Assembly: GCA_965242685.1 (NCBI GenBank)
Contig: OZ251487.1
Coordinates: 547,340-611,339 of the forward strand
From: Gammaproteobacteria bacterium
GTDB taxonomy: Bacteria > Pseudomonadota > Gammaproteobacteria > UBA4575
Length of the DNA: 64,000 nt
Direction: 5' to 3'
Shown in pieces: positions 1,521 to 58,100 of the stretch. The notes below the pieces were generated by a model. That model searched no databases. It saw only the letters and a list, made by a program, of their open reading frames with translations, and was not told where the DNA came from. The position numbers and the translations under genes were made by a program. Numbering within the stretch: the stretch's first letter is position 1; each line of letters begins with the position of its first letter.

Positions 1521-1525
1521 GCATT

Positions 1526-7182: not shown

Positions 7183-7218
7183 AGATCATCATTATCAAAT
7201 CTGTATAGGAAGACATAT

Positions 7219-10732: not shown

Positions 10733-10747
10733 CGGTTTGTCATCACG

Positions 10748-11398: not shown

Positions 11399-11402
11399 GG
11401 CA

Positions 11403-12428: not shown

Positions 12429-12563
12429 CGCATACTCGTTTTTAGTATCGGTAGTATCGGAAAAAAATCGTATTATCCAAGATTTTCGTTGCGTAGCGGT
12501 GAAGATACTTATACCATCCGAATGCCAACAATGAATATATAATCATACAACGTTGGGTGTGTC

Positions 12564-13139
12564 ATGGGGACAAGGCATAGCGTCTCTTACTGGAAGTTTA
12601 TTCCGAACCTGATTACCGTGGCTCGGTTTGCCGCCGTACCGTTTTTGGTGTGGTGGTTGTTTACAGGCCAGTTTTATAATGCCTTTTTGTTGCTTTTCCT
12701 CATGGGTTTGTCTGATGCGGTGGATGGTTATCTGGCTAAGTCGTTCAGTTGGAAAACCGCTTTGGGCGCCTACTTGGACCCTGCGGCAGACAAGGCCATG
12801 TTGATCAGTGCCTATGTCACTTTGGGTGCGTTGAATCTGTTACCCCATTGGTTGGTATTTGTCGTCATACTTCGGGACGTTGCACTATTGGCGGGTGCGC
12901 TGGCTTATAATCTTGCCACGCGCCGTCTGGAAATTCAGCCCACACTTATCAGCAAGTTCAATACGTGCATGCAAATCGTTTTGGCGTTTTCTGTCATCTA
13001 TAATCAGTTTGGTACGTTGCCCGGTATGGTGATACCGATACTGATTGGGCTTACGGTATTTACTACCGTTGCCAGCGGATTGGACTACTTGATGGAAGAG
13101 CGCTCCAGGCGTGCCGCACGGCATGGCGAGCAGGCCTAG
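12564..13139 (+). CDS. CDP-alcohol phosphatidyltransferase family protein
   Basis: Polytopic membrane protein with D-x2-DG-x2-AR...G-x3-D-x3-D in 'SDAVDGYLAKSFSWKTALGAYLDPAADK'. Confidence 0.8.
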   Translation: MGTRHSVSYWKFIPNLITVARFAAVPFLVWWLFTGQFYNAFLLLFLMGLSDAVDGYLAKSFSWKTALGAYLDPAADKAMLISAYVTLGALNLLPHWLVFVVILRDVALLAGALAYNLATRRLEIQPTLISKFNTCMQIVLAFSVIYNQFGTLPGMVIPILIGLTVFTTVASGLDYLMEERSRRAARHGEQA

Positions 13140-13210
13140 GCCTGATGCCCGCCTGTTAAGCATTTTCTCCGTCCCGTTGATAATAAAGACGTCCTCCCTT
13201 TTAGTCTTTT

Positions 13211-14881
<1,671 letters not shown>

Positions 14882-40302: not shown

Positions 40303-40540
40303 TCAATCGTTGTTTGTATTTCGAGGAAAGGATACATCATTTGGATACACGCTACCCGCCGAGTGACCAAGCGAGTGGGGAAATAATTATCGTTTACGCG
40401 TATTGACACAAGGGGAAGATCAAGCGACCAAGCGGGGAGCGGTAGTCGCCGTTCCAGTGCAAGAGTTTGGGGCGAAGTTGGGCTGTAAAGGTTTAAGAGT
40501 TGCACTATACTTCCACACTACATGACGTTCACGCTACATT

Positions 40541-43183: not shown

Positions 43184-43251
43184 GTGGAAGGCTTGCGGAA
43201 ATTTTGACGTTTGATGTTGATATTTTTACCGATTTGTAAATATTTGGTTGG

Positions 43252-45969
43252 TTGGTGATGTTGGAAAGAGAGGTAGAGATTGTGGGTGAGACTGTGGGCG
43301 AATTTCGGGGGGCGTATCTTGGCGCGCGTTTTTATAAGTGCGCGTTGCAGGTGAATCCATCTACGTATGCCGAAGAGTATCAGGGGAAACTGGCTCAGAA
43401 AGAAGACGAATACAACCATGAAATTTGGCGGCAGTGCGAAAAAAATGGCATTGAAATTGTAGGGCTTGCCGACCATGGCCAGGTTGAAAGCTCGGAAGGT
43501 TTGCGGAAATTTTTGACAGAAAAGGACATCACCGTGTTTCCAGGGTTTGAGATTGCCAGCTCTGAAAAGATTCACATGGTTTGTCTTTATGCCAAAAATA
43601 CTGACTCGGACACACTCAACGGGTACCTTGGTCAGTTGATGGGTACGAATTTCAAAAAACTTGAACAGCAGCGAACCTACCCATCTTCACTCAGCTGTGA
43701 GGATATCGACAAAAAAATCAAAGAGCAGGATGGCTTCTGGTATGCCGCACACATGACGGGCAGAAACGGTTTATTAAGATTGGATGGCAGCGGTGGTGGC
43801 CTTGCTCATCTGTGGAAAAAAGATGAGTTAGTCATAGCTGGACAAATCCCCGTCAAAATAGAAGGCTTGAGGGATAACTACAGGAAAATTATAGAAAATA
43901 AGAACCCTGATTATGAAAGAAAAAAGCCTATTGTTATTATCAACGCCAAGGATGTATATGAGCCGGAAACATTGTCAAACCCCGCCGCTTCCTGCCTGGT
44001 GAAAATGACCACGCCTACTTTTGATGCCTTCAAAAAAGCGTTTCACGATCCTGAATCCCGCATTCGATTGAACCATGATGTTCCAGAAAAACCTTATTCA
44101 GTCATCAATTCCATTCAATGGGAAGTTGGCGGGTTTTTTAAGGAAAATACACTGTGTTTCTCCAAACATCTGAACACCGTCATTGGTGGGCGCGGTACCG
44201 GCAAGACAACCTTGGTTGAAGGCATACGCTATGTCCTGGGTCTGCCTATACCGAAAGGAAGCGACAAGGAGCTGAATGAGTTTTATAAAAGGAATCTGGG
44301 CGATTCAAAAATTACTCTGCATGTTACTTCAAAGGCACAGGGTCGGCAGCGTTACACGATCAGTAGGAGGTTTGGCGAACATGCGATTGTGAAAAATGCT
44401 GAGGGAGGTATTTCTCATCTCCTTCCGGAAGATATTTTGCCTGACGTTAAGCTATTAGGGCAAAACGAGATACTGGATATTGCAAAAGACGATGCCGAAA
44501 AACTGTCATTGATTCAAAGTTTCTTACCCGATAGCTCCAAGCTTGATGAGAATCTTCAAAGGATTAAACGAGAGATGGCAAACAACAGAGAGCAGCGGGT
44601 CAAGGCGAATGAGGAGTTTGATCGGTTAGAAAGTGAGGTACAGAAGAAACCGAAGCTGGAAGAGCAACTAGAGCATTTTAAGAAACTGGGCATAGAACAA
44701 AAATTAAAGAATGCTAAACAGATTGAGAAGGAAAAAAATATTCAGGCAAGTATTGAGGGGCAGATTGAAAAGGTTGAAGTATGGCTGGAACGTTACGAGG
44801 AAGTGTTTGATTTAGAGTTTTTGCAAGAAACCAGAATTGAATCCTTACCCAATAAAACTATTTTCGAAAAGGAACGAGACATATTTGAGAAGCTTAAAGG
44901 CCATCTGGATACTTCTGTCGGGCAGGCCAATAAAAATTTGGAAGTCGCCATCAATGAACATAGTGGATTAAAAAAAGAGTGGCAGACCGAAGCCGATAAA
45001 ATCAAGGGCGAGCGACAGCAGGCAATTGCTCAATTACCTGGACATGCCGGGAAAACAGGTGAGGAACTGGGAAAGGAGTACACTGATCTTATCCGTTCAC
45101 TGGAATATATAGAGAGGCAAAAAATTGAATACACACGGCAAAAAAAATTGATCAAAACTCTTAAGGAAGAGAGGAAAGAACTGCTGGAAGTATATCGTGA
45201 AACCGCTTTCAATCGTTTTAAGGCTTTGAGAGAAACCGCCGAAGAGTTAAATCGAGACAATCTGAAAGGGAAGGTGAAACTTAAGGTGAAACGTTTTGGC
45301 AATAAGCAGCCTCTTAAAGATTTTTTGTGCACCATCGACGGTATAGGTGAAGCTAAAATAAAATGGTTGGATAAAGTGGAAACCCTGGATTTGTTAGCCT
45401 GGTCAGAATGGATAAAAGAAAAAAATAGAGAGGCCTTTATGGATGCATACCGAGATTATGGGTTGCAAAAGGGCACCGTTGAAAAATTATTGGGTCCTGA
45501 CTTAGGGAAGAGACTCAAACTGGAAGAGATCGAATTGGAAGAGAAGGTTGAGATCGAATTGAATGTTGCGCACGACGGTGGGGAAAATTATAGGCCACTG
45601 GAATATCTTTCCACCGGTCAGCAATGTACCGCTATTCTCAACCTGCTGCTATTAAATTTAAATTGTGATGATCCACTGATCATCGACCAGCCGGAAGATC
45701 ATCTGGATAACGCCTTCATCGCCGACCGTATCGTGCATGATTTAAGAGAATTTAAGACCAGAAGGCAATTTATTTTTACAACCCACAACGCCAATATCCC
45801 GGTTTTTGGCGATGCCGAATTGATCGCGGTGCTAGATAGTGAAAGGAACGAGGGAGAGGTTAAAGAAGCAGGCTCTATTGATAAAAAAGAGATATGCGAA
45901 CAAACGGCCCAGATACTGGAGGGCGGCGAGGCGGCCTTCCAAATGCGCAGACGTAAGTACGGCTATTAA
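43252..45969 (+). CDS. PHP-like domain fused to ABC/SMC-type (RecF/RecN/OLD-class) ATPase with coiled-coil insert
   Basis: N-terminal PHP-like motifs ('GLADHG', 'FPGFEIAS', 'IHMVCLY', 'YAAHM'). Walker A 'GGRGTGKTT' at 44185..44208, a ~400-aa K/E-rich coiled coil, signature 'LSTGQQ', Walker B 'LIIDQPEDHLD' at 45676..45708, and 'TTHNANIPV'. The architecture recalls proteins I remember as TrlF-family AAA-like ATPases (unverified). Confidence 0.7.
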   Translation: MVMLEREVEIVGETVGEFRGAYLGARFYKCALQVNPSTYAEEYQGKLAQKEDEYNHEIWRQCEKNGIEIVGLADHGQVESSEGLRKFLTEKDITVFPGFEIASSEKIHMVCLYAKNTDSDTLNGYLGQLMGTNFKKLEQQRTYPSSLSCEDIDKKIKEQDGFWYAAHMTGRNGLLRLDGSGGGLAHLWKKDELVIAGQIPVKIEGLRDNYRKIIENKNPDYERKKPIVIINAKDVYEPETLSNPAASCLVKMTTPTFDAFKKAFHDPESRIRLNHDVPEKPYSVINSIQWEVGGFFKENTLCFSKHLNTVIGGRGTGKTTLVEGIRYVLGLPIPKGSDKELNEFYKRNLGDSKITLHVTSKAQGRQRYTISRRFGEHAIVKNAEGGISHLLPEDILPDVKLLGQNEILDIAKDDAEKLSLIQSFLPDSSKLDENLQRIKREMANNREQRVKANEEFDRLESEVQKKPKLEEQLEHFKKLGIEQKLKNAKQIEKEKNIQASIEGQIEKVEVWLERYEEVFDLEFLQETRIESLPNKTIFEKERDIFEKLKGHLDTSVGQANKNLEVAINEHSGLKKEWQTEADKIKGERQQAIAQLPGHAGKTGEELGKEYTDLIRSLEYIERQKIEYTRQKKLIKTLKEERKELLEVYRETAFNRFKALRETAEELNRDNLKGKVKLKVKRFGNKQPLKDFLCTIDGIGEAKIKWLDKVETLDLLAWSEWIKEKNREAFMDAYRDYGLQKGTVEKLLGPDLGKRLKLEEIELEEKVEIELNVAHDGGENYRPLEYLSTGQQCTAILNLLLLNLNCDDPLIIDQPEDHLDNAFIADRIVHDLREFKTRRQFIFTTHNANIPVFGDAELIAVLDSERNEGEVKEAGSIDKKEICEQTAQILEGGEAAFQMRRRKYGY

Positions 45970-45971
45970 GG

Positions 45972-47204
45972 ATGTTGAAAAGCGAGGTATTAAAACTCAT
46001 TGGGCAAGGCGAGGGCGCCAAGCTTGAGTTTAAGCGCGATGACGAGCATTCGAAACAACTTGTCAAAGTGCTTGCCAAAGCGATTGTCGCCTTTGCCAAT
46101 ATGAATGGCGGTAAGATTCTGCTCGGTGTCGAGGATGACGGCAAGGTTAGCGGCATCCAACGGGGCAATCTTCAGGAGTGGCTTATGGATACGGTCATCG
46201 GCAGATATGTTCATCCATTTATATTGCCGGATTACGAAGAGGTCGACGTTGAAGGAAAGCGGGTGGCCGTTGTAACCGTTCCTCAAGGTACCAGCAAGCC
46301 ATACTTTCTCAAAGATAAGGATCGCGAAGATGTTTATGTTCGGTATGGAAATGTTTGCAAGTTGGCGGGGCTTGAACAACTGGCCCGGTTGCTTGATTCG
46401 GGAGGTTTGTTAGCCGCAGAGACGTTTCCCGTACATGGTTCCTCTATCGAGGATTTGGATGAGCGGCGTTATGTCGAGTATTTTGAGAGGGTGCTAAAAG
46501 ACCCCGAGGCAAAAGACTGGGGAAAGGAAGACTGGCAGCAAATATTATTTAATCAAAGTTTTCTTGTAGGGGACGATGCCGCCTCATCGGTTTGTAGTTA
46601 TTTTGCTTATGCGCTGTTTGCCAAGCGGCCCGGATTGAGGCTGCCGAAGGCTGAGGCACGTATCACGATATACCCTGGCGAAGATAAGGATTACCATAGC
46701 GATTATGACGAAGTCCTGGACGCGCCTTTTGTTGGGTTTCGCGGCGAGAACTATCCCACGAGTCAGGCTATCGAGCCTACCTTGCATGAAAGGTTGATCG
46801 CAGCTATTAAGCGGCATTTCAGCAAAGAGGAATTGCAGGGAACGGCGCGGCGACGATTCTGGGACTATCCTCCTAAAGTCGTCAGGGAATTGATAATCAA
46901 TGCACTCGTGCACAGGGACTGGACAAAGAGTAACTATGTGCGCGTAACCGTTTATAGCAATCGCCTGGAAGTTACCAGCCCCGGCGGGCTGCCTAACGGA
47001 CTGACCATAGAAAAGATCAAGAGCGGTGCGCAAGTGTCACGCAATCCACAGTGCGTGAGAATTTTCAGAAATTATGAGTATTTGGAAGATGAGGGCATGG
47101 GTATACGGCGCAAGGTTATCCCGTTGATGCGTGAACATAATGGCACAGAGCCGGAGTTTGAGGACTCTGAACATCATTTCAAAGTGACGCTGTGGAAGAA
47201 ATAG
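45972..47204 (+). CDS. AlbA_2 (Schlafen-type DNA/RNA-binding) + HATPase_c_4-like domain protein
   Basis: N-terminal 'GEGAKLEFKRD...AFANMNGGKILLGVEDDG' and C-terminal 'ELIINALVHRDW...VTSPGGLPNG'. Starts 2 nt after the upstream stop and overlaps the res start by 13 nt. Confidence 0.7.
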   Translation: MLKSEVLKLIGQGEGAKLEFKRDDEHSKQLVKVLAKAIVAFANMNGGKILLGVEDDGKVSGIQRGNLQEWLMDTVIGRYVHPFILPDYEEVDVEGKRVAVVTVPQGTSKPYFLKDKDREDVYVRYGNVCKLAGLEQLARLLDSGGLLAAETFPVHGSSIEDLDERRYVEYFERVLKDPEAKDWGKEDWQQILFNQSFLVGDDAASSVCSYFAYALFAKRPGLRLPKAEARITIYPGEDKDYHSDYDEVLDAPFVGFRGENYPTSQAIEPTLHERLIAAIKRHFSKEELQGTARRRFWDYPPKVVRELIINALVHRDWTKSNYVRVTVYSNRLEVTSPGGLPNGLTIEKIKSGAQVSRNPQCVRIFRNYEYLEDEGMGIRRKVIPLMREHNGTEPEFEDSEHHFKVTLWKK

Positions 47205-49990
47205 ACCATCTCATCATCAATTCTCCCTACGAGAAACCTAAGGAGCATTGGTTTTATAAGGTTGAGACTAAAAGATTCAAGAAGGAAGAAGGACGACGGC
47301 GGGCGGGGTATCTGATAGCGACGCCCGGTTTGAAGGGGCGGGGGCATGACGACCCGGGCAGGTTCGTGGAGATTCCGCTCGTCAATAAGATTCGCGGCTG
47401 CGTCGATGCCTGGCGCGAGGCGGGTTATCCGGGGGTAAGCGGGATGACCAAACGCCTGTTGGATTATTGGAACGATCCGGATGAGCGGGACGGCAAGCGG
47501 TTTTTCTTCTGTCAACTGGAGGCGGTGGAGACGCTGATCTGGTTTACCGAGGCGCCCGACAGCGAGAAGGTCGGGATCGAGATGCCCTCGGATGGCAGTG
47601 ACTTCTTGCGCCTGTGTGCCAAGATGGCGACCGGCACCGGTAAGACGGTGGTGATGGCGATGGTGATCGCCTGGCATATCCTGAACAAGGTGACGGATCG
47701 GCGGGACGTGCGTTTTTCCAAGAATATTTTCATCGTGGCGCCCGGTCTGACGGTTAAGAGCCGCCTGGCGGTGTTACAGCCCGCCGACGCCAATAATTAC
47801 TACGAGGAATTTGGCATCGTGCCCACAGACCTGATGGACAAGCTGCGGCAGGGCAAGGTACGGGTTTGCAACTGGCACGCACTCGGTTGGGAGAGCGAGG
47901 AACGGATCGCAAAGAAGAAGGGGGTGGACAAGCGCGGCGCAAAGAGTGACGAGGCGTACACCCGCGAAGTGCTTGACGAGATGGCCAATGCCCGCAATAT
48001 ATTGGTGATCAACGACGAGGCGCATCATGCCTGGCGCGTCAATCCCGAGGCAGAGGGGAAGTATCTGCGACAGAGGGATATGAAGGACAGCGCCGAGGAG
48101 GCGACGATCTGGGTGGGCGGATTGGATCGCCTACACAGGACGCGCGGTATTTTGGCCTGCTATGATTTTTCGGCGACGCCGTTGGCGCCAACCGGAAAGA
48201 AAAGCGTCGAAGAAGCGCTTTTCGGGTGGATCATCAGCGATTTTGGGTTGAATGATGCGATTGAATCGGGGTTGGTGAAGACGCCCCGCGTGGTGGTGCG
48301 GGACGATGCGCTACCGGACGCCAAGACTTATAAATCGCGCCTTTATCACATCTACAGCAATCCCAAGGTGAAGGATGACCTGAATCGCAAGGCAAGCCCC
48401 GAGGAACCGTTGCCGTCTTTGGTGCTCAATGCGTATTGTCTGCTTGGGTATGACTGGAAGGAGACCGCCCGGGACTGGAAAGATGAAAAGGGTGGGCCGC
48501 CGCCTGTGATGATCACCGTCGCCAACCGTACCGAGACCGCCGCCAGGATCAAGTACGCGCTGGAACGAAATCAGATATGGGTAGAGGAATTGTGTGATCC
48601 GGAACGCATTCTGCACATCGACTCCAAGGTGCTGGCGGAGGCCGAGACGGCGGATGAGGCGGTGGCGTTGAATGGGAATGGGAATGGCGGAGGAGGGGAA
48701 ACCCGTAGTAAAAAGCCCACCAAGGCGGCAAGGGCGGAGCAGTTACGCAGGCAGGTGGATACGGTTGGCAAGCCCGGGGCGCCCGGGGAGCAGATCCAAA
48801 AGGTTATTTCGGTGGGGATGCTTTCCGAAGGCTGGGACGCCAAGAACGTTACCCACATTATGGGCTTGCGTGCCTTTACCAGTCAGTTGTTGTGCGAGCA
48901 GGTGGTGGGCAGGGGGCTGCGAAGGATGTCTTATGAGGTGGATGAAAGTAGCGGCTTGTTTGCGCCGGAATATGTCAATGTCTTCGGTGTGCCGTTCAGT
49001 TTTTTGCCGCATGAGGATAGTGGCAGTACACCGGCGCCCACCTTACCGAAGACGCGTATTTATGCCGATCCCGACAAGGGCAAGTTTGAGATCCGCTGGC
49101 CGAACGTCATCCATATCGAGCATACCTATCGCCCGCGCCTTTTTGTGGATTGGAAGAAGGTAGAAACGTTGGAGCTGGAGGCCGGTAATACGCCCAGCAT
49201 TGCGGAATTGGCGGATGTCATTGCAGGGAAGCCCGATGTTACGAAGGTCAAAGACATAGACCTGAGTAAATTGATACGAGGACAACGATTGCAGGAAGTT
49301 GTCTTCAAGATGGCGCGGGAGACTTATGAGCGGATGAAGCCGGACTGGAAGGGCGGCAAGGAGTTTTTGTTGGCGCAACTCGTTGGGCTGACCGAGGAAT
49401 TTATCCATTCCGACCGTATCGTTATCCATCCGGAACTTTTTAATCGGGATGATTTGCGGCGGCGTGTGATGCTGATCTTGCACATGAGCGAGGTCTTGAA
49501 TCACCTGTGGCAGGCGATTCGGTTTGAGAATACCGAGAGGCTGAAGCCGGTTTTTGACCAGCGTCCGTTCCGTGCCACCGGCGACATGCGTGCCTGGTAT
49601 ACCGGCAAGCCCTGTGAATATACGCGGCGGTCGCATATCAATCTCTGTGTCTGTGACAGCACTTGGGAATCGTCCGAGGCCTTTGAGCTTGACCGTAACC
49701 CGGCGGTGGACGCCTGGGTGAAAAACGATCATCTGGGGTTTGAGGTTCTCTATATCTACAATGGCGTCGTGAAGAAGTATCGGCCCGATTTTATTATCCG
49801 CCTGAAGTCGGGTGAGTTTCTGGTACTGGAGACCAAAGGGCAGGAAACGCAACAGGACAAGGCCAAGCGCAAGTTTTTGGATGAGTGGGCGCGGGCGGTC
49901 AACGGGCAGGGCGGGTTGGGTACGTGGCGCACCGCCGTTTCAAAGGCGCCGGCGGATGTTAGGGATATTCTTCATCGTTACGGGGACTGA
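47192..49990 (+). CDS. Type III-like restriction subunit (SF2 helicase + C-terminal PD-(D/E)xK nuclease), Res-like
   Basis: Motif I 'MATGTGKT' (47624..47647) and motif II 'DEAHH' (48014..48028). Motif VI-like 'VVGRGLRR'. C-terminal 'RPDF...LVLETKG' with D at 49787, E at 49829 and K at 49835. Confidence 0.85.
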   Translation: MEEIDHLIINSPYEKPKEHWFYKVETKRFKKEEGRRRAGYLIATPGLKGRGHDDPGRFVEIPLVNKIRGCVDAWREAGYPGVSGMTKRLLDYWNDPDERDGKRFFFCQLEAVETLIWFTEAPDSEKVGIEMPSDGSDFLRLCAKMATGTGKTVVMAMVIAWHILNKVTDRRDVRFSKNIFIVAPGLTVKSRLAVLQPADANNYYEEFGIVPTDLMDKLRQGKVRVCNWHALGWESEERIAKKKGVDKRGAKSDEAYTREVLDEMANARNILVINDEAHHAWRVNPEAEGKYLRQRDMKDSAEEATIWVGGLDRLHRTRGILACYDFSATPLAPTGKKSVEEALFGWIISDFGLNDAIESGLVKTPRVVVRDDALPDAKTYKSRLYHIYSNPKVKDDLNRKASPEEPLPSLVLNAYCLLGYDWKETARDWKDEKGGPPPVMITVANRTETAARIKYALERNQIWVEELCDPERILHIDSKVLAEAETADEAVALNGNGNGGGGETRSKKPTKAARAEQLRRQVDTVGKPGAPGEQIQKVISVGMLSEGWDAKNVTHIMGLRAFTSQLLCEQVVGRGLRRMSYEVDESSGLFAPEYVNVFGVPFSFLPHEDSGSTPAPTLPKTRIYADPDKGKFEIRWPNVIHIEHTYRPRLFVDWKKVETLELEAGNTPSIAELADVIAGKPDVTKVKDIDLSKLIRGQRLQEVVFKMARETYERMKPDWKGGKEFLLAQLVGLTEEFIHSDRIVIHPELFNRDDLRRRVMLILHMSEVLNHLWQAIRFENTERLKPVFDQRPFRATGDMRAWYTGKPCEYTRRSHINLCVCDSTWESSEAFELDRNPAVDAWVKNDHLGFEVLYIYNGVVKKYRPDFIIRLKSGEFLVLETKGQETQQDKAKRKFLDEWARAVNGQGGLGTWRTAVSKAPADVRDILHRYGD

Positions 49991-52900
49991 GGGTTACGCG
50001 GCTTATTTTCTCCGTGGCGTATTTTCCCCCGCTGCCTATTTTCCCTGTGGCGTGCTCGGCGTACTCGTTCAGCCAGCAGAATGTATTGACCAGCTTCATC
50101 TGCTCCACCGTGCCGCAAGGGATTTCCAGCAGGTTGGGATTGGCGACTACAACGGCTAGACACTGGGCGCGGGAGACGGCGACATTTAGGCGGTTCTTGC
50201 TGTAGAGAAACTCGATGTTGCGCGGCAGGTCTGCGGCGCTGGATGTCACCATAGAGATCAGGACGATGGGCGCCTCCTGTCCCTGGAATTTGTCGACGGT
50301 GCCGACCTTGGCGTTCTCCGGCAGGATGGAGCGCAGATAATTCACCTGCACATTGTAAGGCGTGACCACCAGGATGTCGTTCTCGGTGATCGGGCGCGTG
50401 CCGCCGTCGCGATCGGTGAAGGCCTGCCCAAGCAGGGTTTGGTATTTGGCTTTGATGATCCGGCCTTCCTCGACGCTCTTTTGCGAACAGCCTTCATGCC
50501 GGGCCGGGATCATCGCTATGCCTTCGTTGGGGAGATCAATGCCTTGTAGATTCAGATTACGCGCGGCGGTGCTTTCGTGGGCGGTCAGGCGGCCATCATA
50601 GAAGGCATCGGAAATAAATTGGCAAATGCCGGGGCGCATGCGGTACGTCCGGCCAAGAAAAATGCCGCGTTCGGCAGGGATGGTAGAGTGATCGCCAAGT
50701 AGGAATTCCAGCACCGATAGTCCGGCCTCGCCCGGATGCGTGCCTTGAATGGGCTGGCCCAGCTGCATTTGATCGCCCACCAGGATAATGTTTTTAGCGG
50801 CGGTGGACATGGCCACGACGTTGGCGGTTGCAACCTGTCCGGCCTCATCGATAAAGAGATAGTCCAAGCGACCATCAAAATGCGGGTTGGCGAAGGTCCA
50901 TGCCGTTCCGGCAAACAGATCGGCGCCGAGGTTGATGTTGTCGGTCTTGGTTTCGGGAGTAATGAAGCGGCCATTAAAGAAGGTTTCAGCGTTACCGCCA
51001 CTGGCCTTTTTGATGCCATCGAAGTGCACGCCTTTTTCGGCGGCGACATTTTCCACCTTTTCCAAGAGGTTGTGGATGGCCTTGTGGGAGTTGGAAGTAA
51101 CGCCGATCTTTTTGCCGCGTTTGATCAAGTCGACGATGATGTGGCTGCTGGTGTAGGTCTTACCGGCCCCCGGCGGGCCTTGAATGAAGAGATAGCTGTT
51201 TTCCAGCGCGGCGATGGCTGCCAGCGCATCTGTTTGCAAATCATCGGAGGTGATGATCGCCTCGCCGGGCGGCTTGTCGTGAATGCGCGGCACACGGCGC
51301 GCCAGCAGTTCGGTTGCGGCGCGGGCGGTGTCGGGCGATTGCAATACCTGATCGGCATAGCGGTAGAGGGCCGCGCGGATGATCTTGCTGTCAATCGGGC
51401 CCGGCGGGCCGATGGAGAGGCTTGCCGGCAACGGGTCTTTGTTTGTCCCGCGCCTGATCCTGACGATGCGGGTATCCTCGTCGATCTCGACGAGGGTGCC
51501 GGCGGTCTTCATGGCGGCGACGTCAACGGCCTGTGCGCCGACCTTTAGCTTGTATTCCTGTGACGGGAAACGGTAGGTATAGATCAGGGAGCGTTTGTCC
51601 GGTTCGGGCGCACCGATCTGTTGTAGGCCGCCCAGGCATTCGGTGTCGTCGATTAGCTCGTCTTCAAACTTGTTTTGACGTTCGAAGCCGCTCCACCATT
51701 GCGGCTTGGCTTCCCGGTTGTGAAACTCTAACAGATGGGCCAGCAGATGGGATAGCAGATGGGATGGGCGTTCATCGTTCGGCGGCGGGTCTTCACCGGT
51801 CACGCCCAGACGGGTCTGGTAGTGCTCATATTCGATCTCCCAGTCTTTACGCTGTAGCTGTTCGTCTTCGGCATCTTCCGGCACGCCCTTAAACCATGCC
51901 GTATCTTGAGGCTTGAGGGTCAGCAGCCAATCACGCAGCAGGTGGGTGGAAACGCAGTCTACCTCGTTATAACCGGCGATCGCTTGCAGCAATTCATCGG
52001 CGCCGGTCTCGCGCCATTCGTTGTAAAAGATGATGCTATCCGCCGCCGTTGCCACCGTATTGTCTCGTTCGTCCATGTAGAAGGTTTCCAAGTTTTTGAT
52101 GGAGTAGCCGGGTTCGGAGGTGCGGATGCTCTCGCGCACCACCAGGTACAGGTCGATGAATTTTTGATTGCGGAGTAGGTTGTCCAGCCGTTCCTCGCAA
52201 ACCGCATAGCGGCAGGCCAGCCGTTTCAGCGCGGTCGTTTCATAGTGGTTGTAGTGGTAGATGTGGGCGTGCGGGTGCGCGGCCAGATGGTCGGCCAGAA
52301 AGCCCATAAAGCGTTGGAAGGTCGCTTTCTCCTGTTCGTGATCGTGTGCCCAGAAGGGTTTGAAGCGCTTTTCGCCGTGCTTGGAGTAATAGACGCCAAA
52401 CAGGTATTCCAGGCCGTTCGGGTAGAGTGGATCGCCCTCCATATCGAAGAACAGGTCGCCATCATCGGGCACAGGCAGGCGGGCGAAGCCCTTGTTTGAC
52501 GGGAATGTGTTCGATGGAAATGCGTCGGGCGGGCACGGGATGATCTCGCATTGGTCCTCGCCCGTGGTGGCTTTGTGATGCTGTAAGACCGCCTGTGCGC
52601 GCAGACGCTGGAATACGTCACGGTTTAGGTCGGGGATTTTTTTGTGCGGCGATGTTGCCGCCAGATCGGCAACGGTGCGGATGCCGGTGTTGCGCAGCTT
52701 GTCCATCTGAGCGCGTTGGATATTGGCCACGAGGCTTAAATGGTCGTCTTTTTCCCAGCGCGCTGTACAGCCATCGCGCCACTGGCAGGCGTTACAATGG
52801 CCGCATGGCTCGGGGTAGGAATTGGTAGGCAGGTTTTGAAGATAGCTTTCAAAACGGCCTTTGGCGCGGCGGTAGTAGTAGAAGAAATCGGCCACCCGGA

Positions 52901-53434
52901 AGCCGTGTTTTTTGTGGTCGCCCAGAAACAGGTGCATAGTGGCCGGACGCAAGCCCTGTAATGCCGCCAGCAGCTCTGAATACACGCACAGTTGCATGAT
53001 GTGTTTGGGCGCGGCGGTTCGCGCCAGTTTGGTGTCGAGCACCTCATAGCTAAAATATCGCCCAAGCCGGAGGATGTGTCGCATTTCATCAGGAAGTCGG
53101 CATCGCCCCGCCAAGGGGGGTCAAGGAGTACGGCCTGATAGATGACGTCCGCACCGGATTGCATGGCATCGTGTGTAAGGGAAGCCCGATCCCGTAAGTT
53201 GTGACCTTTGGGGATCTCAATAACGGCTTTGCCTTCGTCCTTCAGGTGTTGGAGATAGGCGGCCTCGTGCTCCAAGCCTTTCTGCCGCAGTAGTCGGTCG
53301 GTCGTACTGGCTTCGGTCTTGTCCATCTTTTCAGTCAGCGCCTTCACGTCAAGAAGGCTGGCATGGTGACATCCCAAGAAGGTGGTCAAGTCCGAGGGGG
53401 AGTAGAGGATCCGATCGTTGCCGTATTGCTGCAT
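49959..53434 (-). pseudogene. RecB/Cas4-like Fe-S nuclease + RNaseH-fold exonuclease-like + Dna2/Upf1-type SF1 helicase, interrupted by a -1 frame change near 53055-53065
   Basis: Two overlapping ORFs (52736..53434 and 49959..53114) join into one architecture. 'GDADFLMKCDTSSGLG' in the first frame runs into 'YFSYEVLDTKLAR' in the second. Also present: Cys cluster 'CGHCNACQWRDGC' (52767..52805), 'FFDMEGDP', Walker A 'GPPGAGKTYT', 'FIDEAGQ', 'GDQMQLGQP', 'DKFQGQE' and 'NVAVSRA'. Confidence 0.7.
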
Positions 53435-53583
53435 ACTATTTTTTATAAAACGCCATTAGAGGGAAAGGGGGGGGTGTTTTTATAGAGAGGGGAAGTCGGT
53501 TGCGAATAGCAAACCGCAATTACCGGCGGGCTTTTGAGGTGATGGTATCCAGGGGCATAGGAAAGTTTATTATTTTACGTCAA

Positions 53584-53676
<93 letters not shown>

Positions 53677-54026: not shown

Positions 54027-54983
54027 ATGAATATAAAAATAATCAAGAGAAGCGATGCACGCGAATCCGAGATAACCGCCGAGGCCCTGTATGAGAGCCG
54101 CCGCGAGTTCCTGCGAGGGTCGGTCTCCATGGCCGCCATGACGATGATGCCGGCGTTTTCGATGTGGCCGGTGGCCGGACGTGCCAAGCTGGATTTTGGC
54201 AGTATCGGCGAGAGTGCCTTTTCCACCGGCGAGGAGCTTACATCCATCGATGATGTGACGAGCTATAACAATTTCTATGAGTTGGGGACGGGTAAGAAAG
54301 ACCCGAAACGGAACGCGCATCTTCTGAAGGTTACGCCCTGGCACGTTCGGGTCGAGGGTGAATGCGACAAGCCGGGGGAATATGCGCTAGAGGATTTTAT
54401 CGGTTCATCAAGGCTGGAGGAGCGCATCTATCGGTTACGCTGTGTCGAGGCCTGGTCGATGGTCATCCCCTGGGTGGGGGTGGAGCTAGGTTCCGTTCTC
54501 AAGCGTTTTGAGCCTAATTCAAGGGCCAAATACGTGCAGTTTTTTACCATCCATGACCCGGAAAATCTGCCGGGGCAGAAGCGCCCCATCCTGGAGTGGC
54601 CGTATCGTGAGGGGCTGCGTATGGATGAGGCCATGCACCCGCTTGCTATCTTTGCGGTCGGTCTGTACGGGAAGGAGATGCCAAATCAGAACGGCGCGCC
54701 GCTGCGTTTGGTGGTGCCGTGGAAATACGGCTTCAAGAGTATCAAGTCCATCGTCAGGGTGCGTTTCACCGAGGAGCAGCCGGCGACCACCTGGAATACT
54801 TCCGCCCCGCGTGAATATGGGTTTTATTCCAACGTCAATCCGGCAGTGGATCATCCGCGCTGGAGCCAGAAGCGCGAACGCCGTATCGGTGAGTTTCGAA
54901 AACGCGAGACGCTGCCTTTTAACGGCTATGCCGAGGAAGTGGCCGGTTTGTATGGAGATATGGATCTCGAGAAGTATTTTTAG
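54027..54983 (+). CDS. msrP: protein-methionine-sulfoxide reductase catalytic subunit MsrP (YedY)
   Basis: Tat signal 'SRREFLRGS' and molybdopterin-oxidoreductase core '[18 protein letters not shown]' and '[18 protein letters not shown]'. Confidence 0.9.
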
Positions 54984-55081: not shown

Positions 55082-55339
55082 TTGTGTATATTTACCAAGT
55101 GTCTGACGTGTAGCAATTCGTACCCACTCACACGTACCGATAAACAATTCTGCTCAGACACTTGCGAAGGGCGTGCAGGCTATCGGAGACGCAGGGGCTT
55201 ACCCGTATCCGATGTTGATTTTGAGGCGTACCAGCGCGAGCAAGGCCGTACAGCACATAGACGGCGTGAGCGGAAAAACTATCTACCCGTGACGCCGACA
55301 GTTCGGCAGAAAGAACAACAACAGGAGAGCGTAGGGTGA
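55082..55339 (+). CDS. small basic zinc-ribbon-like protein
   Basis: 85 aa with 'CLTC...x14...FCSDTCEGRAGYRRRRG', a Cys4 ribbon followed by an Arg-rich tail as in many small phage or mobile-element proteins. TTG start. Overlaps the next ORF by 4 nt. Confidence 0.45.
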   Translation: MCIFTKCLTCSNSYPLTRTDKQFCSDTCEGRAGYRRRRGLPVSDVDFEAYQREQGRTAHRRRERKNYLPVTPTVRQKEQQQESVG

Positions 55340-55638
55340 ATGGTTTTATGCAATGGTGTTTAGGCGCGTTCATTATCAGTATGGTAGGGCTGGGGGTTAT
55401 GGAGATTTTTGAGCCTGAGGCGGATTTACCCAACAAGTATGATTTTTGTAAGACGGAAGGCGGGTATTGGCACTGTTCTCATCATCCAATGACGTATGAA
55501 TATCCAGAAAGGCTTGAATGCGTGGACAAACATTGTGAAGTCAAAATAGACAGGAAAACAGGCGACAAGTTCAAGTTCATGGAAATACGTTTTGAAAATT
55601 GGGAAAAAGAGCGGGGGTATCTACACGTCCATGATTGA
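55336..55638 (+). CDS. small membrane-anchored Cys/His-rich protein
   Basis: 100 aa with an N-terminal TM helix. GTGA overlap with the upstream ORF. Confidence 0.45.
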   Translation: MNGFMQWCLGAFIISMVGLGVMEIFEPEADLPNKYDFCKTEGGYWHCSHHPMTYEYPERLECVDKHCEVKIDRKTGDKFKFMEIRFENWEKERGYLHVHD

Positions 55639-55674
55639 CGGGCAACAGCAACAAGGCGATAACGATACAGTACA

Positions 55675-56034
55675 TTGAACAGTTACATTATAAACAGCGA
55701 AACGAAAAACAAGCTGGTGACATTGGGTTGTGACATTGGCGTGGCGGTGGGCGTGTTACTTACTTTGGACAGACACAAAATACCGCCGTTTGACGATGGA
55801 TTCAGATGCACTTATGGAGAGTTCAAAGAGATGTTGAAACGGGGGTATCTAGTGGAGATAAGCGTCCCCGATTTAGGGGCAATAATGGACTTGTTTAATC
55901 ATTACCCAACAGCAAAGTTAGAGGGTATACAGCTTGACTTATTTAATCATGATCCAACAACAGAGGCGCAGATAAAAAACAAGGTTATATCGGTTCACAA
56001 GACGGACAAGGGGAAGGGGAAAATATACTTTTGA
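55675..56034 (+). CDS. hypothetical protein with internal 'DLFNH-PT' repeat
   Basis: 119 aa with 'MDLFNHYPT' and 'LDLFNHDPT' 15 residues apart. TTG start, so the call is uncertain. Confidence 0.35.
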   Translation: MNSYIINSETKNKLVTLGCDIGVAVGVLLTLDRHKIPPFDDGFRCTYGEFKEMLKRGYLVEISVPDLGAIMDLFNHYPTAKLEGIQLDLFNHDPTTEAQIKNKVISVHKTDKGKGKIYF

Positions 56035-56176
56035 ACGTGTAATAGGAAGGGGTATTGATGGCGTGTACTTTACAGCGTTGTGCGGGCACTTGCAGGTTTA
56101 GAGCTGGTTGAATTTCAATGCCGTTTCGTTTATCTTGAAAAGGTGATGGAAGGGAGCAAATATAGGAGAACAATGA

Positions 56177-56467
56177 ATGGAAACCTTTAATTTCTTTCAA
56201 GCAATAATTGATCAATACGGAGTGGTGGGCGTGATAGTTGGTTTTGTTTGGCTTCATTTCCAAATTAAAGGTATGAAAGACAACACCAATACCCGAATTG
56301 ATGGTATCAAGGATGACGTAAAAGAGATCAAGGATTTGTTTGTAAGGCACGAGCAGCAATGCAATGAAAGACACCAACAGTTCATGGACTATATGAAAGA
56401 ACACGGGGACAGAATATCCAAGCTGGAAGGCAGGTTAGACGAGAGGCAACAACAGCCGGCGACCTGA
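56177..56467 (+). CDS. small N-terminally anchored coiled-coil protein, paralog 1
   Basis: 96 aa with a TM helix ('VVGVIVGFVWLHF'), 'NTRIDGIKDDVKEIKD' and a conserved tail 'HQQFMDYMKEHGDRISKLEGRLDERQQQPAT'. AGGAGA SD-like sequence 7 nt upstream. Confidence 0.6.
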   Translation: METFNFFQAIIDQYGVVGVIVGFVWLHFQIKGMKDNTNTRIDGIKDDVKEIKDLFVRHEQQCNERHQQFMDYMKEHGDRISKLEGRLDERQQQPAT

Positions 56468-56566
56468 CCTGTTCCTAGTGCGCGTGATTATGATGTTCCG
56501 TAAGGCGAGGTAGTTTCGTTTATCTTGAAAAGGTGGCGGAAGGGAGCAAATACAGGAGAACAATGA

Positions 56567-56902
56567 ATGGAAGCCTTTAACTTCTTTCAAACAATGGTTG
56601 ATGAATATGGAGCGGTGGCAGTGCTGTTTGGCTTTGTGTTGGGTTGGCTTTATTTCCGTTTCCGAATTGATGGTATAGAAAACAACATCAATATCAACAT
56701 GGAAAACATCAATACCCGAATTGATGGTATAGAAAACAACATCAATAAAAGCATAGAAAGGATCGAGAATGCGTTTGCAGAGCATGAGAGGAAATGCGCG
56801 GAAAAGCACCAACAGTTCATAGACTATATGGAAGAACACTCGGGCAGAATATCGCATATAGAAGGCAGGCTAGACGAGAGGCAACAACAGCCGGCGACCT
56901 GA
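56567..56902 (+). CDS. small N-terminally anchored coiled-coil protein, paralog 2
   Basis: 111 aa with the same leader, TM helix and tail as paralog 1, plus an in-frame 18-codon duplication ('RIDGIENNIN' twice). Confidence 0.6.
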   Translation: MEAFNFFQTMVDEYGAVAVLFGFVLGWLYFRFRIDGIENNININMENINTRIDGIENNINKSIERIENAFAEHERKCAEKHQQFIDYMEEHSGRISHIEGRLDERQQQPAT

Positions 56903-57002
56903 CCTGTTCCTAGTGCGCGTGATTATGATGTTCCGTAAGGCGAGGTAGTTTCTCGTTTATCTTGAAAAGGTGATGGAAGGGAGCGATACAGAGGAATAAT
57001 GA

Positions 57003-57329
57003 ATGGACAATAGCGGCAACGGCTTCATTGAATGGCTTTTCAAACAGGGTTCGTTGGGAGCGATACTTGGAGTTGTCTTGTTTGTGGGATATAACAGTAT
57101 CAATACCAAAATTGACAACGTGTATACCAATCTCAATACCAAAATTGACAGCGTGAGTACCAGTATCAATGCCAGAATTGATAGCGTGAATGTAAGAATT
57201 GATGGTATCCAGGCCGATATAAAAGAGATCAAGGATAGGGAAAAGTGGTTTATGGATCATGTGATCAAAAACGGGGACAGGATATCTAAGCTGGAAGGGC
57301 AACTGGCGAGGGAACAGGGCAATTCTTAA
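57003..57329 (+). CDS. small N-terminally anchored coiled-coil protein, paralog 3 (diverged)
   Basis: 108 aa with a TM helix, four 'N-x-[KR]-I-D-x-V' repeats, 'IKEIKD' and 'GDRISKLEGQL'. Confidence 0.55.
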   Translation: MDNSGNGFIEWLFKQGSLGAILGVVLFVGYNSINTKIDNVYTNLNTKIDSVSTSINARIDSVNVRIDGIQADIKEIKDREKWFMDHVIKNGDRISKLEGQLAREQGNS

Positions 57330-57482: not shown

Positions 57483-58100
57483 GTGAAGTTCAGCGCAAGA
57501 TACTTGGTAAGGCCGGTATTGTTTCTGGCGCTGCTTATCCCGCTAGGCCTGCACGCCTACGGGTTTTTCAGTGGTGCCGCCGGCGCCAATCCGATTGAGT
57601 TTGTGACGCGGCGCGCGGGCGACTGGGCGTTGAGGATCCTGCTGATCACCCTGGCGATCTCGCCGTTGGCAAGGATCACCGGCTGGCATGGGTTGGTACG
57701 CTACCGAAGGATGTTCGGCCTGTTTGCATTTTTCTACGTCTGCGTCCATCTCTTTTTGTATGTCACCTTGGATAAATTCTTCGATATGGGTGAAATCCTG
57801 GATGACGTGATCAAGAGGCCGTTTATCACCGCCGGTTTTTCGTCGTTTTTGTTGCTGATACCGCTTGCGGTTACGTCAACCAGGAGAATGGTGGAGCGGT
57901 TACAGCATCGCTGGGTTTTGCTGCACCGGTTGGTCTATCTGATCGCGGTGCTGGCGGTGTTGCATTTCTGGTGGATGGTGAAGGCGGATACGCGGGAGCC
58001 GGCCATCTATGCGGCCGTGCTGGCCGTGCTGCTCGGGTTCAGGTTGTTTTTCTACGTGAGGAGAAGGCTGCGCCCCTTGTCACGCCGAGGCGGAATATAG
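57483..58100 (+). CDS. msrQ: protein-methionine-sulfoxide reductase heme-binding subunit MsrQ (YedZ)
   Basis: 205-aa, six-TM ferric-reductase-like protein with 'RRMFGLFAFFYVCVHLFLY' and 'LHFWWMVK' His ligand contexts. GTG start. Confidence 0.85.
   Translation: MKFSARYLVRPVLFLALLIPLGLHAYGFFSGAAGANPIEFVTRRAGDWALRILLITLAISPLARITGWHGLVRYRRMFGLFAFFYVCVHLFLYVTLDKFFDMGEILDDVIKRPFITAGFSSFLLLIPLAVTSTRRMVERLQHRWVLLHRLVYLIAVLAVLHFWWMVKADTREPAIYAAVLAVLLGFRLFFYVRRRLRPLSRRGGI

What the first reader, a model, noticed from the sequence alone, without database searches (positions are those of the whole stretch)
49959..53434. Large Cas4/RecB-like nuclease-exonuclease-SF1 helicase gene, frame-broken inside the nuclease motif and overlapping res tail-to-tail
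**Seen:**
- The N-terminal ORF (start 53434) carries 'FLGCHH' (first Cys) and 'GDADFLMK'.
- At about 53055-53065 the sense continues in the -1 frame as 'YFSYEVLDTKLAR'.
- After that come the C-x2-C-x2-C-x5-C stretch 'CGHCNACQWRDGC' (52767..52805), 'FFDMEGDP', and complete SF1 helicase motifs.
- One missing nucleotide around 'ggcga-tatttt' would restore '...SSGLG(D/E)YFSYEV...'.
- Its stop (49959) lies 32 nt inside the 3' end of res (49990), so the two convergent genes overlap.

**Established:** the D...(D/E)xK plus 4-Cys arrangement is the Cas4/AddB/Dna2-type Fe-S nuclease. The nuclease + DnaQ-like + Upf1-like helicase fusion matches what I recall as TM0106-family RecB-like proteins fused to AAA helicases.

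**Inference:** this is either a recently inactivated defence or repair gene (a toxic partner silenced?), a sequencing indel, or an on/off switch. Being next to the four-gene operon makes a functional link plausible.
Basis: partly seen in the sequence, partly recalled or inferred. Interest (0 to 1): 0.65.

Follow-up and report, generated by a model that had tools for sequence, protein, structure and literature searches.

The report
Recently frameshifted Cas4-exonuclease-helicase gene
A large, widespread but uncharacterised bacterial nuclease-helicase gene, probably used against foreign DNA or in DNA-end processing, has been knocked out in this sponge-associated bacterium by a recent two-base insertion; it is an ordinary fresh pseudogene, not a switch or a sequencing error.

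Summary
One minus-strand gene (53434..49959) is split into two overlapping ORFs, and it overlaps res by 32 nt.

The lesion is a 2-nt insertion, an AT duplication (GAT-AT-TTT, 53055-53058). Four orthologues and the closest relative (L084, 91.6% nt identity) read GGCGATTTTAGC = G-D-F-S.

The break is real. Contigs from three runs (two samples) carry it. A roughly 97-98% identical strain from a third sample and L084 both carry intact alleles.

Removing the two bases gives a 1157-aa protein that matches TIGR03491 end to end (TM0106 family, COG2251), followed by an SF1B Upf1-like helicase. The domains are a Cas4/Dna2-like Fe-S nuclease, an HhH motif, a DEDDy exonuclease and the helicase.

All catalytic motifs are intact. 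Synonymous/nonsynonymous counts on the window branch match those of the intact sister, so the break is recent.

The long tail and the overlap with res are lineage-specific. A 683-nt segment present in L084 is missing here, and 18-nt repeats fill the tail.

A functional link to the Mod/Res operon is not supported: only 3-4 of 83 homologue loci have Mod/Res nearby. Homologues often sit beside WYL-WCX regulators (22/83), McrBC and other defence genes.

Verdict: an ordinary recent pseudogene of a known, uncharacterised, probably defence-related family.

The parts
49959..53434 (-). Whole frame-broken gene. With the 2-nt insertion removed it encodes a 1157-aa TM0106/COG2251 nuclease-exonuclease-SF1B helicase.
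   Evidence: ORFs; repaired translation; TIGR03491 E=2.3e-90 over profile positions 4-462/462; Pfam RNase_H_2, AAA_11, AAA_12.
53055..53058 (-). Frameshift site. Minus strand reads GAT-AT-TTT; one AT of ATAT is an inserted (duplicated) dinucleotide.
   Evidence: DNA alignment with L084, L001, L002 and L003; X4 contig lacks 53055 and 53057; protein alignment A1.
53059..53434 (-). Native N-terminal 125 codons. They include the invariant Cys22 (53369-53371, putative Fe-S ligand) and nuclease motif II GDADFL (53090-53107, D113).
52736..53054 (-). Out-of-frame extension of the N-terminal ORF (about 107 junk residues up to the stop at 52736-52738). It overlaps the true reading frame.
53028..53045 (-). 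Nuclease motif III, E130-V-L-D133-T-K135 ((D/E)xK). It is now in a different frame from motif II.
52767..52805 (-). CxxCxxCx5C cysteine cluster (C210, C213, C216, C222), invariant in all 21 aligned sequences.
52647..52736 (-). Helix-hairpin-helix-like DNA-binding segment (SLVANIQRAQMDKLRNTGIRTVADLA).
   Evidence: AF2 model of the orthologue's N-terminus, with Foldseek local hits to the Rad51/RadA N-terminal domain and NusA AR2 (probability 0.94-0.97).
51918..52460 (-). DEDDy-type 3'-5' exonuclease (RNase H-like) domain. Invariant D330/E332 (FFDMEGD), D427 and Y488-x3-D492.
   Evidence: PF13482 E=2.4e-32, profile positions 1-164/165; invariant columns; Majorek et al. 2014 place COG2251/PF13482 in the 3'-5' exonuclease clade.
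50118..51245 (-). SF1B Upf1/IGHMBP2/Dna2-like helicase core. Walker A GPPGAGKT 51156-51179; Walker B FIDEAGQ 50835-50855.
   Evidence: AAA_11/AAA_12; PDB sequence hits to IGHMBP2 (4.4e-24), Upf1 and Dna2; PADLOC MkoA 6.6e-46.
49959..50057 (-). Non-conserved 32-residue C-terminal tail plus stop codon. It contains about 3 degenerate 16-18-nt tandem repeats (50000-50053).
   Evidence: Tails of homologues are 3-12 residues long; TRF; X4 has one more 18-nt copy behind 50013; indel junction against L084 at 50028-50040.
49959..49990 (.). 32-nt convergent overlap between the tail of this gene and the 3' end of res.
   Evidence: There is no terminator-like site in or next to the overlap.
47192..49990 (+). 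res: BPTD_3080-family restriction endonuclease, a convergent neighbour. It is not part of the same functional unit.
   Evidence: NCBIfam NF046055, 1091 bits. No conserved linkage in homologue loci.
53584..53676 (-). tRNA-Ser(GCT) immediately upstream and co-oriented. The same junction is found in L084.
   Evidence: ARAGORN; upstream alignment 95% identical.

Best explanation
This is a recently pseudogenised copy of a widespread single-polypeptide nuclease-helicase: the TM0106/TIGR03491/COG2251 family fused to a Upf1-like SF1B helicase.

How the intact enzyme most likely works (inferred from domain homology):
- The SF1B motor translocates 5'->3' on single-stranded DNA.
- The N-terminal Cas4/Dna2-like Fe-S PD-(D/E)XK nuclease degrades one strand or polarity, and the central DEDDy 3'-5' exonuclease degrades the other.
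- An HhH motif helps to hold the DNA.

Context points to a role against invading DNA, with DNA-end resection or repair as the alternative. The gene is scattered across phyla, is carried on plasmids, and often sits beside a divergent WYL-WCX (CapW/BrxR-type) regulator and next to McrBC, restriction-modification and other defence genes.

What happened in this strain:
- A duplicated AT dinucleotide (53055-53058) shifted the frame between nuclease motifs II and III.
- No product can carry Cys22, D113 and E130/K135 together, so the Cas4-like nuclease is dead.
- At best an N-terminally truncated exonuclease-helicase could be made from an internal start that has no obvious ribosome-binding site.
- The break is young and polymorphic: sister strains in the same sponge study and in another metagenome keep the frame.

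The long C-terminal tail and the overlap with res are a separate, lineage-specific accident of an indel plus 18-nt repeat expansion.
For: Shown:
- The frame break and its position.
- A +2 insertion relative to four orthologous DNAs and 20 proteins.
- The break is reproduced in three runs from two samples, and the frame is intact in X4.
- An intact 1157-aa allele, P0121/L084, sits at the same tRNA-Ser locus.
- Family and domain hits.
- Cas4, Dna2 and ACE1 are the top structural matches to the N-terminal domain of the 84% identical orthologue.
- The window protein has only 2 changes at otherwise invariant columns, within the 0-16 range of the other sequences.
- Window branch 43 synonymous / 31 nonsynonymous changes; intact L084 branch 27/17.
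- 0 of 83 chromosomal homologues are frame-broken.
- Context: a WYL-WCX regulator next to the gene in 22 of 83 loci across many orders; McrBC in 10 of 83; PADLOC hits to dGTPase, Mrr/type IV, type I RM, DpdE, ZorD, JetB and DruE among 110 sampled neighbours.
- 68 plasmid copies and no phage copy.
- Plasmid copies sit beside multiubiquitin/E2/ThiF genes and a WYL gene.
- The tail: a 683-nt segment of L084 is absent here and tandem repeats fill it.

From the literature:
- COG2251 was described as PF13482 + a PD-(D/E)XK domain + tandem AAA domains, and is uncharacterised (PMC3985635).
- CapW-type WYL repressors sense single-stranded DNA and control immune operons (PMC11662680 abstract).
Against: - No member of this family has been tested, as far as the searched literature shows. 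The enzymology and the defence role are therefore inferences.
- The neighbourhood enrichment has no formal genome-wide control. WYL regulators also control DNA-damage responses, so a repair role is equally compatible.
- The window copy itself has no WYL neighbour.
- Only assembled contigs, not raw reads, were available. A minor intact subpopulation in X1-X3 could not be looked for.
- The runs' library type is unknown, so nothing can be said about transcription.
Confidence: 0.85

Rival explanations
1. Phase-variable on/off switch: the dinucleotide slips back and forth, so the population toggles the gene, which may be costly or toxic.
For: - Broken and intact alleles coexist among closely related strains of the same host study.
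- The lesion is a tandem duplication of a dinucleotide.
- Other in-frame tandem repeats vary in this gene.
Against: - The tract is only (AT)2 followed by T4, far below the lengths that give high slippage rates.
- Orthologues have a single AT there.
- The intact X4 allele differs at the site by a substitution (GAA TTT), not by repeat number.
- No broken allele was found among 83 chromosomal homologues.
- The three contigs with the break show no variant, although contigs drop rare variants.
Confidence: 0.04
2. Selected inactivation: the nuclease-helicase was silenced because it conflicts with the neighbouring restriction system, in particular after the TrlF/AlbA_2 cassette was inserted between mod and res.
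For: - The window strain has both the broken gene and a low-GC TrlF + AlbA_2 cassette (43192-47141).
- The relative L084, which has an intact gene, lacks that cassette.
- Defence genes are often lost when costly (general knowledge).
Against: - This is a single co-occurrence (n=1).
- The intact gene coexists with the same Mod-Res pair in L084.
- X4, which is intact, also yields res fragments at 97-98% identity and an AlbA_2-like fragment at 87%.
- No TrlF or AlbA_2 homologue lies near any of 83 homologues, so there is no recurrent association, positive or negative.
Confidence: 0.06
3. Sequencing or assembly artefact, or programmed -1/+2 recoding, so that a full-length protein is in fact made.
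For: The downstream frame stays open, and all catalytic motifs are intact.
Against: - The identical sequence appears in contigs of three runs from two samples, at depths of 6-18.
- A 2-nt insertion outside a homopolymer is not a typical long-read error.
- There is no X XXY YYZ slippery heptamer at the site (read).
- All orthologues are in a single frame, so no conserved recoding signal exists.
Confidence: 0.04

Closest known systems
TM0106 family RecB-like putative nuclease (NCBIfam TIGR03491; COG2251), helicase-fused form
   Same: - The profile match is full length (residues 14-504, E=2.3e-90).
- The architecture is the same as in more than 7000 homologues of about 1110-1125 aa: PD-(D/E)XK + PF13482 + AAA_11/AAA_12.
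- NCBI names the plasmid homologues this way.
   Different: - This copy is frame-broken by a 2-nt insertion.
- It carries lineage-specific in-frame repeats and a 32-residue tail.
- The family has no experimentally established function.
CRISPR Cas4, and the Argonaute-associated Cas4-family enzyme ACE1
   Same: - They are the best structural matches to the N-terminal domain (Foldseek E=4.7e-5 to 1e-2, probability 0.87-1.0).
- The motifs match: D...(D/E)xK, a QxxxY-like motif (Q147...Y151), one N-terminal Cys and a C-terminal Cys cluster.
   Different: - TM-scores are only 0.3-0.5 and sequence identity 12-17%.
- There is an extra fourth Cys in the C-terminal cluster.
- The domain is fused to an exonuclease and a helicase.
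- No cas or pAgo genes are nearby.
Dna2 (eukaryotic nuclease-helicase) and AddB-type Fe-S nucleases
   Same: - The order of parts is the same: an N-terminal Fe-S PD-(D/E)XK nuclease followed by an SF1B helicase in one chain.
- Dna2 is hit both by sequence (helicase, 1.4e-11) and by structure (nuclease, about 2e-3).
   Different: - An additional DEDDy exonuclease and an HhH motif lie between nuclease and helicase.
- The distribution is sporadic, horizontally transferred and plasmid-borne, rather than a core replication or repair gene.
Mokosh MkoA/MkoC (COG1112 helicase-based anti-phage systems)
   Same: The helicase core is the best PADLOC match (MkoA E=6.6e-46, MkoC 3.4e-30). Both are large helicase-plus-nuclease defence-type proteins.
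   Different: - The match covers only the helicase half (residues about 837-1112).
- Mokosh uses a PLD-type nuclease (my recollection of Millman et al. 2022), not Cas4 plus DEDDy.
- No MkoB partner is present.
Nhi / Hhe single-protein nuclease-helicase defences
   Same: The concept is the same: one polypeptide combining an SF1 (AAA_11/AAA_12-type) helicase with nuclease domains, found in defence islands.
   Different: - There was no Nhi hit, and only a marginal Hhe hit (7.5e-5 over about 70 residues at the Walker A region).
- The nuclease domains are different.

Membership tests
TIGR03491 / COG2251 TM0106-family RecB-like nuclease | Score above the curated cut-off, with end-to-end coverage of the family profile | tested here: met
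   303.8 bits against a cut-off of 97.45, profile positions 4-462/462, for the frame-repaired protein. The match needs the repair, because the two ORFs each carry only part of it.
TIGR03491 / COG2251 TM0106-family RecB-like nuclease | Cas4-like PD-(D/E)XK domain followed by a PF13482 RNase H-like exonuclease domain, often with tandem AAA (helicase) domains | tested here: met
   PF13482 E=2.4e-32; AAA_11/AAA_12/AAA_30/AAA_19; Cas4/Dna2 fold; architecture as described in PMC3985635.
TIGR03491 / COG2251 TM0106-family RecB-like nuclease | A single uninterrupted reading frame, meaning a functional member | tested here: not met
   A +2 frameshift at 53055-53058. The window copy is a pseudogene of the family.
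Cas4/AddB/Dna2-type Fe-S PD-(D/E)XK nuclease | Catalytic D ... (D/E)xK motifs and a QxxxY motif | tested here: met
   D113, E130, D133, K135, Q147 and Y151 are invariant in 21 sequences. In the window they are all encoded, but split between two frames.
Cas4/AddB/Dna2-type Fe-S PD-(D/E)XK nuclease | Four Cys ligands: one N-terminal plus C-x2-C-x5-C | tested here: met
   C22 together with C213-x2-C216-x5-C222, and an extra C210, are all invariant. Actual cluster binding cannot be tested here.
Cas4/AddB/Dna2-type Fe-S PD-(D/E)XK nuclease | Structural similarity to solved members | tested here: met
   The AF2 model of the orthologue's N-terminus has pLDDT 75.9. The top 9 Foldseek hits are Cas4, Dna2, SSO0001 and ACE1, at E=4.7e-5 to 9e-3. 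TM-scores are modest (0.24-0.52). A profile search against PDB sequences found nothing.
CRISPR-associated Cas4 (as a system member) | Association with a CRISPR array and cas1/cas2 | tested here: not met
   No cas genes appear among the ORFs around the gene. No Cas1 or Cas2 family appears in the top-25 family summaries for the 110 sampled neighbours. No CRISPR-array search was run.
DEDD 3'-5' exonuclease (PolB-exo-like, PF13482) | ExoI DxE, a central D, and ExoIII Yx3D acidic residues | tested here: met
   D330/E332, D427 and Y488/D492 are invariant. The Pfam match is full length. Assignment of these residues to the motifs is by inference.
SF1B Upf1-like helicase | Walker A, Walker B and motifs III-VI; similarity to Upf1/IGHMBP2/Dna2 | tested here: met
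   GPPGAGKT, DEAGQ, GDQMQL, VDKFQGQE and VAVSRA are all invariant and present in the window. PDB hits: IGHMBP2 4.4e-24 and Upf1 6e-20.
Known anti-phage defence system (PADLOC/DefenseFinder class) | Full-length match to a curated defence model, or experimental evidence | tested here: not met
   Only helicase-domain matches were found (MkoA, MkoC, DpdJ, PDC-S37). No paper on the family was found. A defence role rests on context only.
Phase-variable (contingency) gene | A long simple-sequence repeat at the frameshift site whose length varies between isolates | tested here: not met
   The tract is (AT)2T4. Relatives have (AT)1, or a substitution instead.

The most novel reading that the evidence does not exclude
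The COG2251 Cas4-DEDDy-SF1B proteins could be a not-yet-validated family of single-gene immune or anti-plasmid effectors under WYL control, with the WYL repressor sensing ssDNA or DNA damage. These would be bacterial 'Dna2-like' enzymes that shred invading DNA from both polarities. On that reading, the natural intact/broken polymorphism in sponge symbionts would reflect an ongoing cost-benefit trade-off in a microbiome dense with restriction systems.
Probability: 0.35. Interest if true: 0.55.

Novelty: new member of a known kind. Interest (0 to 1): 0.25.

Why it matters
For this window the result matters mainly for annotation. The two ORFs should be merged and flagged as one pseudogene of the TM0106 family. 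The overlap with res should not be read as a regulatory feature.

More broadly, the survey gives a concrete, testable lead for a large family that still has no assigned function. The family has more than 7000 database homologues and 68 plasmid copies. About a quarter of the sampled loci pair the gene with a divergent WYL-WCX regulator, and many sit among McrBC, restriction-modification, dGTPase, Bil-like and other defence genes. Intact close alleles (P0121, P0002) are available for expression tests.

Tried and rejected
- The '1-nt deletion' repair (G-D/E-Y-F-S-Y-E) was built first. It was rejected once orthologues showed no extra residue.
- Exact look-up of the window's 1041-aa product found no contig on record.
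- Literature searches for TM0106, TIGR03491, COG2251, PF13482, TrlF and BPTD_3080 found no functional study. Two WYL/BrxR papers do not mention this family.
- A profile search of the N-terminal domain against PDB sequences gave only noise. The structure-based search was needed.
- An RNA-run search returned only the same four runs, of unknown library type. Transcription and convergent read-through could therefore not be assessed.
- The test for a Mod/Res link was negative.
- The idea that the broken allele goes with the RM operon and the intact allele with its absence was rejected: L084 and X4 both have res.
- The terminator scan of the overlap found nothing relevant.
- The extra 224-aa ORF of L084 has no Pfam match.
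- The phage collection has no homologue beyond a weak helicase hit.
- The organism's taxonomy was not pursued, to save the costly searches. Only 'sponge-associated' is inferred, from the run labels.


Full report
**Observation**

On the minus strand, an ORF of 232 aa (53434..52736) overlaps an ORF of 1051 aa (53114..49959) in another frame.
- FLGCHH, GDADFLMK and FSYEVLDTKLAR;
- CGHCNACQWRDGC at 52767..52805;
- FFDMEGDP;
- the Walker A (51156-51179) and Walker B (50835-50855) motifs.

The stop codon at 49959 lies 32 nt inside res (47192..49990).

**Nature of the lesion**

The closest homologues instead read ...S(S/G)LGDFSYEVLDTKLAR, with no extra residue.

At DNA level the window has GGCGATATTTTAGC. 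The closest relative L084 has GGCG--ATTTTAGC, and three further orthologous loci (L001, L002, L003) lack the same two bases. The lesion is therefore a 2-nt insertion, a duplication of AT at 53055-53058.

Removing it gives a 1157-aa protein that aligns without a gap through the junction. The break falls between nuclease motif II (D113, GDADFL) and motif III (E130-V-L-D133-T-K135).

**Real or artefact**

Logan contigs of three public runs (X1-X3; two samples; depths 17.8, 5.9, 6.1) match the window across 49800-53604 with no mismatch and no gap. A fourth run from the same study and host label (X4, another sample) carries a roughly 97-98% identical strain. In that strain two bases are absent at exactly 53055 and 53057, giving GGC GAA TTT AGC (G-E-F-S), an intact frame.

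The protein cluster of the window's product also contains P0121, 1157 aa and uninterrupted. It comes from a 9453-nt contig (L084) of another metagenome, 91.6% identical in DNA and joined to the same tRNA-Ser.

So the mutation is real, and intact and broken alleles coexist among close relatives.

**Age of the break**

- The window protein differs at only two otherwise invariant columns (I647L, E1067A). This is within the range of 0-16 seen for the other 20 sequences.
- With L001-L003 as outgroups, the window branch has 43 synonymous and 31 nonsynonymous changes. The intact L084 branch has 27 and 17.
- Constraint was therefore the same on both branches for nearly all of their length. The inactivation is recent.
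- None of 83 chromosomal homologue loci is frame-broken. Among 68 plasmid copies, one is annotated as two overlapping CDSs and one is interrupted by IS5.

**What the gene is**

- The repaired protein matches NCBIfam TIGR03491 ('TM0106 family RecB-like putative nuclease') over the whole profile: residues 14-504, 303.8 bits against a cut-off of 97.45.
- It matches Pfam RNase_H_2/PF13482 (residues 328-504, E=2.4e-32) and the SF1 helicase families AAA_11, AAA_12, AAA_30 and AAA_19 (residues 733-1100).
- By sequence the helicase is closest to IGHMBP2, Upf1/Nam7, Dna2 and Sen1, and to the Mokosh helicase MkoA among defence models.
- An AlphaFold2 model of the N-terminal 312 residues of the 84% identical orthologue P0002 has a mean pLDDT of 75.9. 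Its core is above 90, while the first 40 residues and the Cys loop are low.
- The best Foldseek matches in the PDB are Cas4 (type I-C, Pcal_0546, SSO0001), Dna2 and the Argonaute-associated Cas4-family enzyme ACE1, at E=4.7e-5 to 9e-3.
- Residues 233-262 give local matches to helix-hairpin-helix modules.
- Invariant residues fit a Cas4-type active site and Fe-S ligands (C22; C210/C213/C216/C222), a DEDDy exonuclease (D330, E332, D427, Y488, D492) and a complete SF1B motor.
- Majorek et al. 2014 described this architecture for COG2251 and placed it in the 3'-5' exonuclease clade without known function (PMC3985635).
- I found no paper that characterises the family.

**Distribution and context**

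More than 7000 homologues scored E<=1e-20, typically 1110-1125 aa. They include Legionella, Sphingomonas, Bradyrhizobium, Pelagibacter, Actinomycetota, cyanobacteria and Chloroflexota. Sixty-eight plasmids carry a copy and no phage does.

Within 10 kb of 83 homologue loci:
- Mod or Res relatives of the window's operon occur in only 3-4 loci, and TrlF or AlbA_2 relatives in none.
- The most frequent neighbour is a roughly 330-aa WYL-WCX regulator, found in 22 of 83 loci across many orders. It is usually immediately upstream and divergent.
- McrB/McrC pairs occur in 10 loci.
- Among 110 randomly sampled neighbours of at least 220 aa, PADLOC or Pfam also hit HNH and Mrr/type IV enzymes, dGTPase, type I RM, DpdE, ZorD, JetB and DruE.
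- The three closest sponge-metagenome orthologues lie next to type I RM with RhuM, next to a type ISP enzyme, or among ordinary genes.
- Two plasmid copies sit beside multiubiquitin/E2/ThiF genes.

This pattern is typical of defence islands. No formal control was run, and WYL regulators also govern DNA-damage responses. CapW-type WYL repressors sense ssDNA (PMC11662680 abstract).

**Mechanism**

The following is inferred from domain homology. The intact enzyme would load on ssDNA or a DNA end. It would translocate 5'->3' with its SF1B motor and degrade DNA with two nucleases of opposite polarity. In many hosts it would be under a DNA-damage/ssDNA-responsive WYL repressor.

I put defence against invading DNA at about 0.5-0.6 and a repair or resection role at about 0.3.

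In the window the nuclease cannot be assembled, because C22 and D113 are encoded in one frame and E130/K135 in the other. The annotated 1041-aa product starts at an internal ATG (53084) with no evident Shine-Dalgarno sequence and would lack these residues.

**The tail and the overlap with res**

- Homologues end 3-12 residues after ...CWLxEYA. The window continues for 32 residues.
- In L084 the gene ends ...EYAEYATGETSHA*. It is followed by a 224-aa ORF (3652-4326, no Pfam match) and then by res.
- The window lacks this 683-nt segment. Homology runs window 50040 = L084 3645 and resumes at window 50028 = L084 4329.
- The native stop codon is therefore gone, and reading continues through about three degenerate 16-18-nt repeats (50000-50053) into res. 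X4 has one more repeat copy.
- The overlap is a lineage-specific by-product, not a conserved arrangement. No terminator-like site lies in it.

**Rivals**

- A phase-variable switch is unlikely. The tract is only (AT)2T4, relatives differ there by a substitution rather than by repeat number, and no other broken alleles were found.
- Sequencing error and programmed recoding are contradicted.
- Selected silencing through conflict with the neighbouring operon rests on a single co-occurrence. The window has a low-GC TrlF + AlbA_2 cassette between mod and res that L084 lacks. The intact gene nevertheless coexists with the same Mod-Res pair.

**Verdict**

This is an ordinary, recent pseudogene of a known, widespread, functionally uncharacterised nuclease-helicase family. 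The proposed repair, the switch idea and the operon link are not supported. The finding itself is of low interest. The family-level lead (WYL-paired, found in defence islands, untested) is of moderate interest.

Noticed in passing
window 43192-47141 (TrlF-family ATPase 43252-45969; Schlafen AlbA_2/HATPase_c_4 45972-47204): These two inner genes of the 'four-gene operon' form a low-GC (42-47%) cassette. It is absent from the closest relative L084, where mod and res are adjacent. The cassette therefore looks like an insertion of a Ppl-like PHP/AAA ATPase plus a Schlafen-AlbA_2 protein into a type III-like Mod-Res operon.
   Followed up: partly
L084 3652-4326: An extra 224-aa ORF lies between the nuclease-helicase gene (overlapping its stop by 8 nt) and res. 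It has no Pfam match, and the segment is missing in the window.
   Followed up: partly
window 55082-57329: A low-GC (~44%) insert lies between msrP (54027-54983) and msrQ (57483-58100). It carries three paralogous small ORFs (56177-56467, 56567-56902, 57003-57329) with similar C-termini (...ISK/HxEG.L.ERQQQPAT). The one tested (56567-56902) has no Pfam match.
   Followed up: no
window 40455-43191 and 47493-49838: Short conserved stretches of mod and res reach word depths of 1000-14000 in the sponge-derived runs, against 10-20 for this genome. Many different contigs join these stretches in other ways. This Mod/Res family is therefore extremely abundant and diverse across the sponge microbiome.
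   Followed up: no
L013, L014, L016, L033, L037, L040, L063, L070, L086 and others (immediately upstream of the homologue): A divergent WYL-WCX regulator gene is the most conserved neighbour of the family (22 of 83 loci), which suggests a regulator-effector pair. The window copy has a tRNA-Ser in that position instead.
   Followed up: partly
L085 (Phenylobacterium plasmid pA) and L086 (Rhizobium leguminosarum pRL1): Plasmid homologues sit next to multiubiquitin / E2-UBC / ThiF-E1 / DUF6527 genes (a Bil-like ubiquitin-type system). The pRL1 copy is annotated as two overlapping CDSs, which makes it another split allele.
   Followed up: no
window 51732-51765 and 52493-52522: The gene contains in-frame tandem repeats: 12 nt x2.8 (SHLL/SHLL/AHLL) and 15 nt x2 (FPSNT/FPSN, in the linker). 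Copy number or sequence varies among close strains: X4 has 15 extra nt behind 52519, and P0121 reads PPDAYPPDAFPSN.
   Followed up: partly
window 53436-53457: X4 lacks 22 nt (AATGGCGTTTTATAAAAAATAG on the gene strand) ending 1 nt upstream of the start codon. L084 keeps this stretch. The effect on expression is unknown.
   Followed up: no
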